Positions 17,901-20,900 of a DNA stretch of 28,751 nt are shown one piece after another (the stretch's first letter is position 1; the number at the start of each line of letters is the position of its first letter). The stretch comes from a virus (Duplodnaviria > Heunggongvirae > Uroviricota > Caudoviricetes). Location of the stretch: the IMG/VR virus record IMGVR_UViG_2531839664_000032; one strand, given 5' to 3'. Position numbers: made by a program.

Positions 17901-20900
17901 GCAAGGCTGTATGCGGGCCACCAGGACCATACAGATTGATATCAGCATAAGCAGCAGAAGACAGGAATATTAAAAAACCTGCCATTATGTTCCTCATAAA
18001 AAACTCCTTTTATTGGTTATCATGAAATAAAGTTATAAACACTACAAATAATATATATTATATCCAGATAAACTTATCCGACTTTACCTCGTGCATAGCT
18101 TGTTATTTAAAGTTAACAAAATAAGGAAAATTATACGCATATTGAAGAGTATAAACCTTACATGTTGATTACATTTTTGTAATCAACATCCTGTTTGGAA
18201 TAGCCAGCCTTTAATGGATAACTATTTCTGACAATGCAATGAGTATAATCAAGTCCATCTTCCACTGAGAATTAGAGGCGGCATGCTTTTTCCGGCTCTT
18301 GCCGGATATCCGTAATTGTCCATAATCTGCAGATTTATACCTTCTGCATGACCTGTCAGCGAAAATTTGTCCGGTGTTTCTACGGGAATGACATCAAAAG
18401 TTACACGCACTCGCGTTACCGTGTAGACCTACTTTCCTGCACTTGCAAGATCACAGTGGTGTAACCGTAACAGGAATTTATTCTCTGGACCGGCAGTAAA
18501 TCCCTGAGTGGCGTGGTTCCCATATCAATTTCCCGCCAGGCAGCCTCCATTGCCAGCGTACAGGCTGGAGCCATGACCTGCCCTTTAAATCTGGCCCGAC
18601 CATCCCACCGGACGTGTTCTTCTCCCCTGAACTTAGGTACAGTCATCTCCAGTGGCACAAAAGTGTCAGCGCCATAATTTTTGACCGTTATCGCGCTACG
18701 GATATTTTGTTGACTGGTGAAAATCACCCCGCAGAATCAGGCTTATTCCCTTAACCCGGGCTTTCATCCTGACCGCCGCCTCACTACGACCAATCAGACT
18801 GCCGATGCATTTTACCTTCATTGTTAGTATCATGATTTCAGGCCTGCACCATCCGCTCATTGCCCGGACTTCCGACAAATCCCGGCAACCATATCCCGGT
18901 GCTTGTTCAGCTCCCGCAGCGCGGCGCAGACTCGCTCCCACTTCTGGACATGATTCTTCGCCCTACGCAGTTCGCGATTTGCCATATGCAGCGATGGCAA
19001 AATCAAATCATCTTCTCGCGTTGCAGTAAACGATGGCAGCGACTGCACAATGTCCGCCACAGTTTCTGTTTTAATATCTTCCTGTGTTGCATCTTTCTGT
19101 ACCGGTAACGCAACACCGGCTGGCTGAGGAAAGGCTTTACCATCGGTTTCCGCTACCGATTCAACTTTCGGCTCTGCTGGTAAATTATCACCTGGTATGC
19201 AGTAACGAATTTTACCGTTCTGGTTTACGCGAATCAGACGACCTTTGCTGATTGCCATTGCCAGCGTTGAAGCAACTTTGCGGGATGTTGTACCGAACAG
19301 CGTAGCCAGTTCATCCGCCGTTTGTGGTCCGCGTTGTTCAATCGTCGCGGTTAAATCGCACTCTGAGATTTTCGCTTCTGTTGCCGTGGTGGTTTCTTCT
19401 GGCGCTGGCTGTTCCTGCTGAACGTTGTTATCAGCCACACGCCAGGTGTATACGCTTTTATCAACGAAGCCAGCCTTTTTCAGTTCCCACAGCTCGTTCA
19501 GTACTTCTTCACGACTGATATCAAGTCGCGCAGCCAGCTCTACCGACGTGGCTTTTCCCATCGCTTTCAGTGCGTCAAAAACAGTCTCCATAAATTTCCT
19601 CCCGGTAAAAAATCACTTCTCAACTCAAACAAAACCAGCCGCTTTCCGGCGTTCATATTCCTGTTTCAGCAACTCAATTGGCGTTGGCCCCGACGGGCGT
19701 TTGGGGGCCGCCAGTTGTCGCCGGACTGGCGGAACGCTCAGGCCGTTACTAACATGCTTTGCCCATTTCGTCAGTTGCCGTTCTGCAAGCCGTTTTAATT
19801 CCCCTTCGGTCATCTGGCGCTCAATCCCCTTTGAACGCATCTCGAGGCAAATGTGATACAGCACAGGCTGAGACCACGGGTACTTATCACTTCCGTCGTA
19901 TCGCCAGGACTCATTGCGCCAGCGGCGGTACTCCTCCATCACAGCATCCACCGTCAGACCGAATGGATTGGCTCCGCTTTTCGAAATCAGTGCCACAAAC
20001 TCAGCCAGGTCCGGAGGCCATGTTTCACCCGCCCGGCAGCGGTCCATGCACTGGCGGCAGACCTGCCGGATTTGCTGCTCAGTCATCGCGCCAATCTGTG
20101 CAATCCAGAGCTTCGAAGGTGCGGCCCCGTTCTTCTGGGTCCAGCGGTTCGAATAAACCACCCCCATGAGTTCCCACAGCTTCCAGGCCGTTTCCGTCGC
20201 TGATAAATCCGTTTTCACGTTCCCACTGCTCACGTGCTGCCCGAATTTCCTGAACTGCCCGTGATGCGGTGCCACCTGGTGCTGCTGCATGGTTTACCCC
20301 TTTGCTGACTGGTTTAACCTGCGCCCTGACGTGATTTACGTGACGGGCGAATTTCTGCTCCCACTGAATCTGCGTAAACACTTTCCCCTCCGCTGCCCAG
20401 TAGTCCCGGAAGGCGGCAAGTTCAGCAGGTGTAAATTCTGTCTCCGGCAAAGCCATCCCCCACAACGCAGCCCGTCGTCGAAAATCCCGTGACGGATACC
20501 AGCTATCGCTCATCGGGAATTTTCCGATGGGTTCGCTCAGGCCATACAGGAATACAGGGGGGGCTGCCTGTAACGACAAAACTTCCTGCTCACTGGTCGG
20601 AGCACTCTCGCGTGCGTTATGTGTGGGGTTTAGATCTTTGGGTTCCTTTGGGTTCCGTGATCCGTTTTTGGGTGTCTTTGATGGAAAATTTGGGTGTCTT
20701 TGGTTATTTTCCATGCAGCTAAGAGTTCTGTTTTTGGGTCTGTTTTGTGCTGAAACATAACCATTTTCGGTACTGTTTTTATTAACAGCACCAATTTTAC
20801 CCACCTTTAAAGACTCCCGTTTTTGGGTGTATTCAGGCTCGGCAACACTTTCTTCTACACCGATAAGTCGGTACACCACAATTTGCTTTGTTCTGCCTTT

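What the first reader, a model, noticed from the sequence alone, without database searches (positions are those of the whole stretch)
20630..20835. Iteron-like repeats inside the O-like gene mark a probable origin
Six TTTGGGT(T/G)-containing repeats, two of them 15-bp identical, lie in the segment encoding the Pro/Lys/Asn-rich linker of the O-like initiator, next to an AT-richer stretch. This mirrors ori-lambda lying inside O and supports the replication-module assignment. The module may still fire and drive local amplification even though the prophage cannot package.
Basis: seen in the sequence. Interest (0 to 1): 0.35.

Follow-up and report, generated by a model that had tools for sequence, protein, structure and literature searches.

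The report
Prophage replication origin inside initiator gene
A cluster of short DNA repeats inside a prophage's replication-initiator gene is very probably that prophage's replication origin, built like the phage lambda origin, and the same repeat turns up in related initiator genes of many other phages.

Summary
TTTGGGT occurs six times on the + strand in 20637-20828 and once elsewhere in 28.7 kb. No shuffle gave a 7-mer cluster above 4. On the gene strand the unit is (A)CACCCAAAAACGG(G)A.

The repeats lie in the disordered linker (residues 97-162) of a 346-aa initiator with an N-terminal winged helix and a DnaT-like ssDNA-binding domain. A lambda-P-like gene follows.

They are DNA-level elements. 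The six copies use all three reading frames, and synonymous-codon permutation never reaches six copies (0/20000).

The core CCAAAAACGG recurs at the same gene position in relatives from Klebsiella, Edwardsiella, Yersinia, Ralstonia and phiV10. It is read there as PKNG, QKR or PKT.

A DNA-only scan for paired cores found 80 viral loci; 74 have this N-domain just upstream. One relative also carries the array in intergenic DNA.

Swapping the N-domain swaps the repeats: Rac-SA53 shares only the half after the array.

So the "lambda-like origin inside O" reading is well supported by comparison, but neither binding nor firing is shown. Details need correcting: 14 bp identical rather than 15, five K-type copies plus one TTTGGGTC, and the AT-rich tract lies inside the array. 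It is a new member of a known kind, of moderate interest.

The parts
20635..20830 (-). Whole iteron array (probable origin core). Seven units, all in the orientation of the gene.
20813..20830 (-). Iteron 1, ACACCCAAAAACGGGAGT. This is the best copy, with dyad arms ACNCCC / GGGNGT around AAAAAC. It is read as TQKRE (frame 0).
20771..20810 (.). AT-rich tract and least stable 40-mer of the gene (GC 0.30, z 2.4). Candidate unwinding element.
20756..20773 (-). Degenerate unit 2, AGTACCGAAAATGGTTAT (STENGY). It matches the CCGAAAACGG variant used by relatives.
20724..20741 (-). Iteron 3, AGACCCAAAAACAGAACT. Read as RPKNRT (frame 2).
20680..20697 (-). Iteron 4, ACACCCAAATTTTCCATC. Read as HPNFPS (frame 1). 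It shares the 14-bp CAAAGACACCCAAA with iteron 5.
20658..20675 (-). Iteron 5, ACACCCAAAAACGGATCA. Read as TPKNGS (frame 2).
20635..20655 (-). Two tandem half-units, GGAACCCAAAG GAACCCAAAG (frames 1 and 2). The mosaic junction with the Rac-type C-terminal half lies at about 20639.
20635..20710 (-). A 76-nt stretch (gene nt 410-485, iterons 4-7) with no variable site among 47 distinct E. coli alleles. The flanking linker is the most polymorphic part of the gene.
20079..21119 (-). Initiator gene (O-like, 346 aa). Annotated elsewhere as 'phage replication protein' or 'DnaT-like ssDNA-binding domain-containing protein'.
20853..21119 (-). Codes for the N-terminal winged helix-turn-helix (residues 1-89, pLDDT 88-97). 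Presumed iteron-binding domain. The window protein's own Pfam HTH_36 match is weak and below the family cut-off.
20535..20849 (-). Codes for the disordered inter-domain linker (residues 91-195, pLDDT below 50). It contains the array.
20319..20531 (-). Codes for the DnaT-like ssDNA-binding domain (residues 197-267).
19625..20290 (-). Lambda-P-like helicase-loader ORF (PF06992). Annotated starts are 20086 or 20047. The 221-aa ORF overlapping the end of O is also open in Rac-SA53.
21091..21853 (-). Upstream early-right genes: cro (21626-21853) and a YdaT-like gene in the cII position (21091-21642). Early rightward transcription would run through the array.
21930..22337 (+). Repressor of 135 aa with an HTH_3 domain and no peptidase domain.

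Best explanation
The array at 20635-20830 is the initiator-binding (iteron) part of this lambdoid prophage's replication origin, and it lies inside the initiator gene itself.

Proposed mechanism; every step is inferred by analogy with ori-lambda. The N-terminal winged helix of the 346-aa initiator binds the units (consensus about AAnAnTCCCAAAAACGGGAC, arms TCCC/GGGA around an A5 tract). Several bound units bend and wrap the DNA. The duplex opens at the AT-rich tract 20771-20810. The DnaT-like ssDNA-binding domain and the downstream lambda-P-like protein bring host DnaB helicase to the opened strands. Transcription from the cro-side early promoter passes through the origin.

Shown here: the repeats exist and are non-random. 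They are constrained at the DNA level rather than the protein level. They are tied to this N-domain family across many phages. They sit in a disordered linker next to the weakest duplex of the gene.
For: 1. Non-random cluster. Six TTTGGGT in 192 bp against one elsewhere. 0 of 300 shuffles reached more than 4. The 15-mer CACCCAAAAACGGGA with up to 3 mismatches hits 3 of its 4 window sites inside the array.

2. DNA-level constraint. The copies sit in frames 0, 2, 1, 2, 1, 2. Permuting synonymous codons gives a mean of 0.9 copies, and 0 of 20000 runs reach 6.

3. Family conservation. Relatives found by protein homology alone have 3-4 exact CCAAAAACGG at gene nt about 260-480: Klebsiella, Edwardsiella, Yersinia, Ralstonia and phiV10. 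Vibrio phage Her, GF-2, AP22 and Bcep176 have variant repeats in the same place. Mcat8, whose wing is divergent, has a different repeat.

4. Reverse test. A DNA-only scan for two cores 6-36 nt apart gave 80 viral loci, and 74 have the N-domain HMM directly upstream on the same strand. In 36 non-redundant genes there are 126 exact cores, all in the sense orientation. Frames: 83 PKNG, 31 QKR, 12 PKT.

5. Non-coding copies. Locus L171 has the array both in the gene and about 7 kb away in AT-rich intergenic DNA with 24-bp spacing. L125 has a similar intergenic array.

6. Module swapping. Rac-SA53 YdaU shares 87% identity only from the residue just after the last repeat, and its different N-half lacks these repeats. 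GF-2 joins this N-domain and its repeats to a lambda O C-terminal domain.

7. Anatomy. wHTH at residues 1-89, disordered linker 91-195, DnaT fold 197-267. A P-like gene lies downstream. In 31 of 38 genes compared (37 family genes plus lambda O), the least stable 40-mer lies inside the array or downstream of it, and in 26 of the 38 it lies inside it or within 15 nt downstream, as in lambda.

8. Polymorphism. Iterons 4-7 show 0 of 76 variable sites among 47 alleles, against 47 of 240 in the rest of the linker (a post hoc comparison).

9. Sakai Sp9 carries the same module (1040/1041 nt) and was scored as circularising, replicating and packaged (PMC2669165).
Against: No binding, unwinding or replication data exist for this module, and I found no paper describing these iterons.

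The AT-rich tract is modest (GC 0.30). It lies inside the array rather than at its distal end as in lambda, and the DNA after the last unit is GC-rich.

Unit spacing is irregular (10-89 bp), and only copies 1 and 5 carry the full CCAAAAACGG.

The P-like gene may be shorter than lambda P, so helicase loading could differ.

The viral set was selected for having two exact cores, so counts from it are biased. The frame and position results are not affected by that selection.

Sp9 'replication' in PMC2669165 was measured as attP-junction copies, not as initiation at this site.
Confidence: 0.8

Rival explanations
1. The repeats are a by-product of a repetitive Pro/Lys/Asn-rich peptide (PKNG-like motifs) selected at the protein level, for example to bind a host factor. 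They would have no role as DNA.
For: The linker is P/K/N-rich, and relatives repeat PKNG-like peptides. In the family, 83 of 126 cores use the PKNG frame. Arrays with 24-bp spacing keep the reading frame.
Against: The same DNA core is read in all three frames, both in this gene and across the family. Synonymous permutation never reproduces six copies. Arrays also occur in intergenic DNA. The linker is predicted to be disordered.
Confidence: 0.04
2. The units are initiator-binding sites, but they serve control rather than initiation: autoregulation, a transcription roadblock before P, titration or handcuffing. The true start site would lie elsewhere.
For: Some relatives have a second, intergenic array flanked by very AT-rich DNA, which could be the real origin there. 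The AT-rich tract here is modest and interior. Iteron plasmids use the same sites for control (PMC4980987, listed).
Against: No second array exists in this window. In 26 of 38 genes compared (37 family genes plus lambda O), the weakest duplex is inside the in-gene array or within 15 nt downstream of it. The arrangement copies ori-lambda, where these sites are the origin (PMC7466680).
Confidence: 0.1
3. The conserved repeats mainly act as shared homology patches at a module boundary. They would promote recombinational exchange of initiator N- and C-terminal halves between phages.
For: The Rac-type mosaic junction lies at about 20639, within the last half-unit. Across relatives the same N-domain and repeats are joined to DnaT-like, lambda-O-like, PF09524 or other C-terminal parts.
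Against: Exchange at a linker is expected for any two-domain initiator and needs no special sequence. This reading does not explain the same-orientation multi-copy arrays, the dyad symmetry, the intergenic arrays or the adjacent weak duplex. It is compatible with the origin reading rather than an alternative to it.
Confidence: 0.04
4. The CCCAAA(A/G) units are ribosomal -1 frameshift sites that produce truncated or alternative initiator forms.
For: C_CCA_AAG at 20646-20652 is in the right frame for a classic slippery heptamer. By reading the sequence, the -1 frame stops 9 codons later, which would give an N-domain-only protein.
Against: Only some copies are in the slippery frame, and no stimulatory structure was looked for or seen. 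This reading does not explain the non-coding arrays or the link to the N-domain. It was not tested.
Confidence: 0.02

Closest known systems
ori-lambda inside gene O of phage lambda, and the six-iteron origins of Stx phages 933W and P27
   Same: Same-orientation iterons inside the initiator gene, in the segment coding the inter-domain linker. They are read in different frames (lambda: IPQNEG, SPKTRD, SLKLGD, PSKQGD; read). The units are dyad-symmetric around an A-tract: lambda TCCCTC-AAAAC-GAGGGA, here TCCC-AAAAAC-GGGA. There is an AT-rich tract, a P-type loader gene downstream, and a position after cro/cII in the early right operon (PMC7466680). One Phage_rep_O initiator (L136) even uses TTACCCAAAAACGGGTAA.
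   Different: The N-domain shows no significant sequence match to Phage_rep_O. The C-terminal domain is DnaT-like rather than the lambda O C-domain. The AT-rich tract is interior and weaker. Spacing is irregular. The core is conserved across very distant N-domains, whereas classical lambdoid iterons are, from my own knowledge, specific to each phage type.
Bacillus phage SPP1 oriL (inside gene 38) and oriR, bound by the initiator G38P
   Same: An origin made of initiator-binding repeats inside the initiator gene, plus a second copy of the sites elsewhere in the genome. This matches L171, which has an in-gene array and an intergenic array. The SPP1 facts are from my own knowledge and were not checked here.
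   Different: Unrelated host and proteins. This window has only the in-gene array.
Iteron plasmids (Rep/RepA/pi/TrfA type origins)
   Same: Direct repeats bound by a winged-helix initiator next to an AT-rich unwinding element. The initiator may also contact ssDNA (PMC4980987 and PMC10602881, listed).
   Different: Plasmid iterons lie outside rep, and Rep has two WH domains with DnaA boxes nearby. Here there is one WH domain, the array lies inside the gene, and no Rep_3-type Pfam hit was found.
Rac prophage replication module (ydaU-ydaV, oriJ)
   Same: The C-terminal DnaT-like half and the P-like gene are about 87-90% identical to those of Rac-SA53. Rac is reported to have an active origin, oriJ (PMC3945230).
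   Different: The Rac-SA53 N-half has no detectable similarity to this N-domain and lacks these repeats.
E. coli DnaT (primosomal protein I)
   Same: Residues 197-267 match the DnaT C-terminal ssDNA-binding domain (PDB 6AEP, 4OU6; E about 1e-19; TM 0.87-0.89).
   Different: The DnaT N-terminal part is replaced by a sequence-specific winged helix and the iteron-coding linker. Databases often label the protein 'primosomal protein', but it sits in the place of a phage origin-binding initiator.

Membership tests
Lambdoid origin embedded in the initiator gene (ori-lambda type) | Several same-orientation initiator-binding repeats (iterons) of about 18-20 bp | tested here: met
   Seven units at 20635-20830, all in gene orientation. 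Shuffle control 0/300. Spacing is irregular: 10-89 bp against 20-24 bp in lambda.
Lambdoid origin embedded in the initiator gene (ori-lambda type) | The array lies inside the initiator gene, in the inter-domain linker, and is constrained as DNA | tested here: met
   Residues 97-162 with pLDDT below 50. Three reading frames are used. Synonymous permutation 0/20000.
Lambdoid origin embedded in the initiator gene (ori-lambda type) | Internal dyad symmetry around an A-tract | tested here: inconclusive
   The family consensus TCCC-AAAAAC-GGGA and copies such as GATCCCAAAAACGGGATC are symmetric. In this window only copy 1 is clearly so.
Lambdoid origin embedded in the initiator gene (ori-lambda type) | Adjacent AT-rich unwinding element | tested here: inconclusive
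   The weakest 40-mer of the gene is 20771-20810 (GC 0.30, z 2.4), but it lies inside the array. Of the 38 genes compared (37 family genes plus lambda O), 26 have it inside the array or within 15 nt downstream.
Lambdoid origin embedded in the initiator gene (ori-lambda type) | Helicase-loader gene directly downstream, and a position in the early right operon after cro/cII | tested here: met
   PF06992 P-like ORF, cro (P22_Cro) and a YdaT-like gene.
Lambdoid origin embedded in the initiator gene (ori-lambda type) | Iteron sequence co-varies with the initiator N-domain | tested here: met
   Rac-SA53 has a different N-half and lacks the repeats. Mcat8 has a divergent wing and a different repeat. 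74 of 80 DNA-only hits have the N-domain upstream. Exception: L136 has a Phage_rep_O N-domain with the same core.
Lambdoid origin embedded in the initiator gene (ori-lambda type) | The initiator binds the repeats and the segment supports replication | not testable with these tools
   Only indirect leads. Sp9 carries 1040/1041 of this gene and was scored replication-positive. An 8,461-bp circular record holds only this module as replication genes.
Lambda O protein family (Pfam Phage_rep_O, PF04492) | N-terminal domain matches PF04492 | tested here: not met
   No PF04492 hit at E up to 0.01. HTH_36 scores 20.9 bits, below its 25-bit cut-off. hhalign against lambda O gives 3.7% probability.
Lambda O protein family (Pfam Phage_rep_O, PF04492) | Lambda-type C-terminal (P-interacting) domain | tested here: not met
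   The C-terminal half is DnaT-like. Relative GF-2 does have the lambda-type C-domain.
   77 homologues with E down to 1e-107. Invariant columns. The window protein's own Pfam HTH_36 match is below cut-off, while relatives pass it. AF2 gives a confident winged helix.
   Two exact cores and four ACCCAAA variants here. Relatives have 3-6 exact cores each.
Iteron-plasmid Rep proteins (Rep_3 / RepA type) | Two winged-helix domains, with iterons outside the rep gene | tested here: not met
   One WH domain, the array inside the gene, and no Rep_3 hit.
DnaT primosomal protein | C-terminal ssDNA-binding three-helix domain | tested here: met
   PF17948 at 9e-17. PDB 6AEP at 1.7e-19. Foldseek TM 0.87-0.89.
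DnaT primosomal protein | DnaT N-terminal domain and full-length architecture | tested here: not met
   The match to full-length DnaT (9ZBT chain D) covers only its residues 82-157. The N-terminal part here is a winged helix.

The most novel reading that the evidence does not exclude
The core CCCAAAAACGG may be a shared iteron for a very broad set of phage initiators: N-domains only about 30-40% identical, from Gamma- and Betaproteobacteria phages, and at least one Phage_rep_O protein. It is close to the lambda iteron itself.

If binding specificity is really shared, initiators of unrelated co-resident prophages or of superinfecting phages could fire or titrate each other's origins. E. coli genomes carry up to four copies of this exact module, and phiV10-type phages use the same core. 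That would give replication-level cross-talk, such as trans-activation of defective prophages, regional amplification or origin-based exclusion. It would also tie the two initiator families to one ancestral origin type.
Probability: 0.25. Interest if true: 0.6.

Novelty: new member of a known kind. Interest (0 to 1): 0.38.

Why it matters
**For annotation.** It places the likely origin of a very common E. coli prophage module. The module is in 908 of 5,426 complete genomes, including O157 Sakai Sp9, which carries paa/adfO. It also shows that proteins labelled 'DnaT-like' or 'primosomal protein' are origin-binding initiators.

**For biology.** The same 10-11-bp core, read in three frames, marks origins across a large initiator family. 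That gives a simple sequence rule for finding phage origins. It also raises a testable question: do prophages with the same iteron core interfere with or activate one another?

**Limits.** It does not open a new kind of system. The design is the lambda one.

Tried and rejected
The same query on viral contigs returned only near-identical E. coli loci. These served for the polymorphism test but not for divergence.
- hhalign of the family alignment against lambda O was not significant, so homology of the two N-domains is not claimed.
- Searching papers for the iteron string and for phiV10/epsilon15, DnaT-like or ydaU initiators gave nothing relevant.
- The promoter scan found no consensus promoter near cro, so pR was not placed.
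- Foldseek matched the N-domain only to generic ArsR/MarR/TFE-type winged helices at weak E-values, with no initiator-specific match.
- The 8,461-bp 'plasmid' NZ_CP148379.1 looked like a natural lambda-dv. It is colinear with chromosomal prophage segments in other strains, so it could be an assembly artefact and is kept only as a lead.
- Rejected readings: a peptide-repeat by-product, and frameshift sites (see rivals).
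Full report
**1. The observation**

On the + strand, TTTGGGT starts at 20637, 20647, 20667, 20689, 20733 and 20822. The only other copy in the 28,751-bp window is at 9397 on the other strand. TTTGGGTK matches five of the six, all inside the region. The copy at 20733 is TTTGGGTC.

A scan for the densest non-overlapping 7-mer cluster in any 200 bp returns exactly this one, with six copies. In 300 dinucleotide-preserving shuffles the maximum was 2 in 21, 3 in 274 and 4 in 5.

The pair called '15-bp identical' is 14 bp: TTTGGGTGTCTTTG at 20667-20680 and 20689-20702.

GC falls to 0.35-0.40 over 20670-20819, against about 0.5-0.6 elsewhere in the gene. By nearest-neighbour energy, the least stable 40-mer of the gene is 20771-20810 (GC 0.30, z 2.4).

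**2. Where the repeats sit**

The repeats lie in a minus-strand gene, 20079-21119 (346 aa from ATG). On the gene strand the unit reads ACCCAAA, and its fuller form is (A)CACCCAAAAACGG(G)A.

The neighbourhood is a lambdoid early-right operon:

| Feature | Coordinates | Strand |
|---|---|---|
| Repressor, 135 aa, HTH_3, no peptidase domain | 21930-22337 | + |
| cro (P22_Cro) | 21626-21853 | - |
| YdaT-like gene in the cII position | 21091-21642 | - |
| Initiator | 20079-21119 | - |
| Lambda-P-like ORF (PF06992, 9.5e-17) | 19625-20290 | - |
| DUF1627 gene | 18857-19591 | - |

The initiator has three parts:
- Residues 1-89 are a confident winged helix-turn-helix (pLDDT 88-97). Pfam HTH_36 matches it only weakly.
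- Residues 91-195 are predicted disordered (pLDDT below 50).
- Residues 197-267 match the DnaT C-terminal ssDNA-binding domain: PF17948 at 9e-17, PDB 6AEP/4OU6 at about 1e-19, Foldseek TM 0.87-0.89.

The array (gene nt 290-485, residues 97-162) lies wholly in the disordered linker.

The window is 99.8% identical to the 'PPompW' prophages of STEC. Positions 15173-28751 match the early region of O157 Sakai prophage Sp9 next to ompW. The initiator gene is 1040/1041 identical to ECs_1768. The N-half plus array occurs in 908 of 5,426 complete E. coli genomes, with up to four copies per genome.

**3. DNA element or peptide repeat?**

The six ACCCAAA copies sit in reading frames 0, 2, 1, 2, 1, 2. They are translated as TQK, RPK, HPN, TPK, NPK and EPK.

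Permuting synonymous codons within the gene gives a mean of 0.9 copies and never six (0/20000). Resampling codons from the window's own usage gives the same answer. The protein sequence does not explain the repeat.

**4. Relatives found by protein homology**

The N-domain has homologues in Klebsiella (about 65% identity), Edwardsiella (56%), Yersinia (39%) and Ralstonia (39%). It also occurs in phages phiV10, Bcep176, AP22, Vibrio phage Her, GF-2 and Mcat8. I fetched their DNA.

Klebsiella, Edwardsiella, Yersinia, Ralstonia and phiV10 each have 3-4 exact CCAAAAACGG at gene nt about 260-480. These are read as PKNG in one frame and QKR(E/D/N) in another. Variants (CCGAAAACGG) and reverse-orientation copies coding PFFP also occur. 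A given 10-mer is expected about 8e-4 times in an 800-nt gene.

The best copies are dyad-symmetric, for example GATCCC-AAAAAC-GGGATC.

Vibrio phage Her has CCGAAAACGGTACTT five times at 24-bp spacing. GF-2 has AATGATCCCAAAATTGG three times. AP22 and Bcep176 have their own variants. Mcat8, whose wing motif is divergent, has an unrelated repeat eight times.

**5. The reverse test**

I scanned the viral contig collection with DNA alone: CCCAAAAACGG, 6-36 nt, CCCAAAAACGG. This gave more than 120 stretches, of which 80 were fetched.

An HMM of the N-domain hits directly upstream on the same strand in 74 of the 80 (E from 2e-44 to 4e-6). One of the six misses has no upstream sequence.

In 36 non-redundant genes there are 126 exact cores. 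All are in the sense orientation and all lie after the N-domain. Frames are 83 PKNG, 31 QKR and 12 PKT. The flank consensus is AAnAnTCCCAAAAACGGGAC. This set was chosen for having two cores, so the counts are biased, but the frame and position results are not.

Two exceptions are informative:
- L171 has an initiator gene with in-gene units and a second array about 7 kb away. That array sits in AT-rich intergenic DNA with 24-bp spacing. L125 has a similar intergenic array. The motif therefore also exists where nothing is coded.
- L136 has a true Phage_rep_O initiator (PF04492, 1.5e-31) with TTACCCAAAAACGGGTAA-type units (three exact, two TTACCCAAATTCGGGTAA) followed by an AT-rich tract.

**6. 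Modularity**

Rac-SA53 YdaU matches this protein at 87% identity only from K(D/E)LNPTH onward. That is the residue just after the last unit, at window position about 20639. Its N-half shows no detectable similarity to this N-domain and lacks these repeats.

GF-2 joins this N-domain and its repeats to a lambda O C-terminal domain (62% over 144 aa, 2e-67). Other relatives carry PF09524 or other C-terminal parts, and are followed by P-like, DnaB-like or other genes.

The N-domain and its repeats therefore travel together as one cassette, as in lambdoid O genes.

**7. Weak duplex and polymorphism**

I compared 38 genes: 37 family members and lambda O. The least stable 40-mer lies inside the array in 13 and downstream of it in 18, of which 13 are within 15 nt (lambda is at +3). 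It lies upstream in 7. In this window it is interior, between unit 1 and the rest, and the DNA after the last unit is GC-rich Rac-type sequence.

Among 47 distinct E. coli alleles, variable sites are distributed as follows:

| Region | Variable sites |
|---|---|
| N-domain | 18/269 |
| Iteron 18-mers | 11/111 |
| Rest of the linker | 36/205 |
| C-terminal part | 74/456 |
| Gene nt 410-485 (units 4-7) | 0/76 |

The last comparison is post hoc, and recombination tracts may contribute.

**8. Comparison with the known**

Lambda's annotated iterons are ATCCCTCAAAACGAGGGA-like and lie inside O, followed by an AT-rich tract. They are also read in different frames.

Stx phages have six such iterons, and the origin is described as iterons plus an AT-rich tract in the middle of O (PMC7466680).

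The present element has the same design and a similar unit: TCCC-A5C-GGGA against TCCCTC-A4C-GAGGGA. However, the N-domain is not detectably a Phage_rep_O, and the C-terminal domain is DnaT-like. I file it as a lambdoid ori-in-initiator origin and not as a lambda O family member.

I found no paper describing these iterons.

**9. The 'may still fire' idea**

This cannot be tested here.

Sp9, which has essentially the same module, was scored as spontaneously excising, replicating and packaged. It is not mitomycin-inducible because its repressor lacks the peptidase domain. Selective and regional amplification were seen only for Sp5, Sp13 and Sp15 (PMC2669165).

An 8,461-bp circular record (NZ_CP148379.1) holds repressor, cro, ydaT, initiator and P, with all six units at the same spacing and no other replication gene. 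It is colinear with chromosomal prophage segments in other strains. It may be a lambda-dv-like circle or an assembly artefact.

**10. Verdict**

The repeats are real, non-random and constrained as DNA. They are tied to the initiator's N-domain across a wide family. The origin reading is the best explanation (confidence about 0.8), while binding, unwinding and firing remain inferred.

It is a new member of a known kind. The family-wide conserved core, its resemblance to the lambda iteron, and possible cross-talk between prophages are the parts worth following up.

Noticed in passing
window 19625-20290 (- strand): The P-like ORF is 221 aa and overlaps the last 212 nt of the initiator gene in another frame. 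The same ORF is open in Rac-SA53. Homology to phiV10 P starts at ORF residue 18, upstream of the annotated starts (20086 or 20047). P may be longer than annotated and truly overlap O.
   Followed up: partly
window 20646-20652 (- strand): C_CCA_AAG in the zero frame (AAC CCA AAG) is a classic -1 slippery heptamer inside a half-unit. The -1 frame stops 9 codons later, which would give an N-domain-only product.
   Followed up: no
L136 (IMGVR_UViG_3300023215_001397), oriented 2347-3138: A true Phage_rep_O (lambda O family) initiator carries five TTACCCAAAAACGGGTAA-type units and an AT-rich tract just downstream. The core is the same as in this window's family.
   Followed up: partly
L171 (IMGVR_UViG_2684622683_000014), oriented 7875-7950; L125, oriented 5562-5660: A second array of the same units lies in AT-rich intergenic DNA. 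In L171 it is about 7 kb from the initiator gene (182-982), which has its own in-gene units. This may be a second origin or a control site.
   Followed up: partly
L216 = NZ_CP148379.1 (pZ1323HEC0067-2), 1-8461: This circular 8,461-bp record consists of repressor, cro, ydaT, initiator, P, DUF5677, an AAA ATPase with an HNH nuclease, hokD and rem. It has no other replication gene. It is 96% identical to window 19402-21767 and colinear with chromosomal prophage segments in other strains.
   Followed up: partly
window 1-15172 versus 15173-28751: Only the right 13.6 kb of the window matches Sakai Sp9's early region (int to about paa/hok). The left 15 kb has almost no match to the first 45 kb fetched around Sp9, so the window's prophage differs from Sp9 beyond the early region.
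   Followed up: no
L002 (Rac-SA53) 2922-2954: The unrelated N-half of Rac-SA53 ydaU has its own perfect 10-bp inverted repeat, TGTTCAAACA / TGTTTGAACA, just before the shared C-terminal half. It may belong to that module's own origin (oriJ type).
   Followed up: no
window 20630-20794 (- strand): A 54-aa ORF is open in a second frame across the array. It again reads the units as DPKT, HPKT and NPKI. This probably follows from the repeat composition rather than marking a gene.
   Followed up: no
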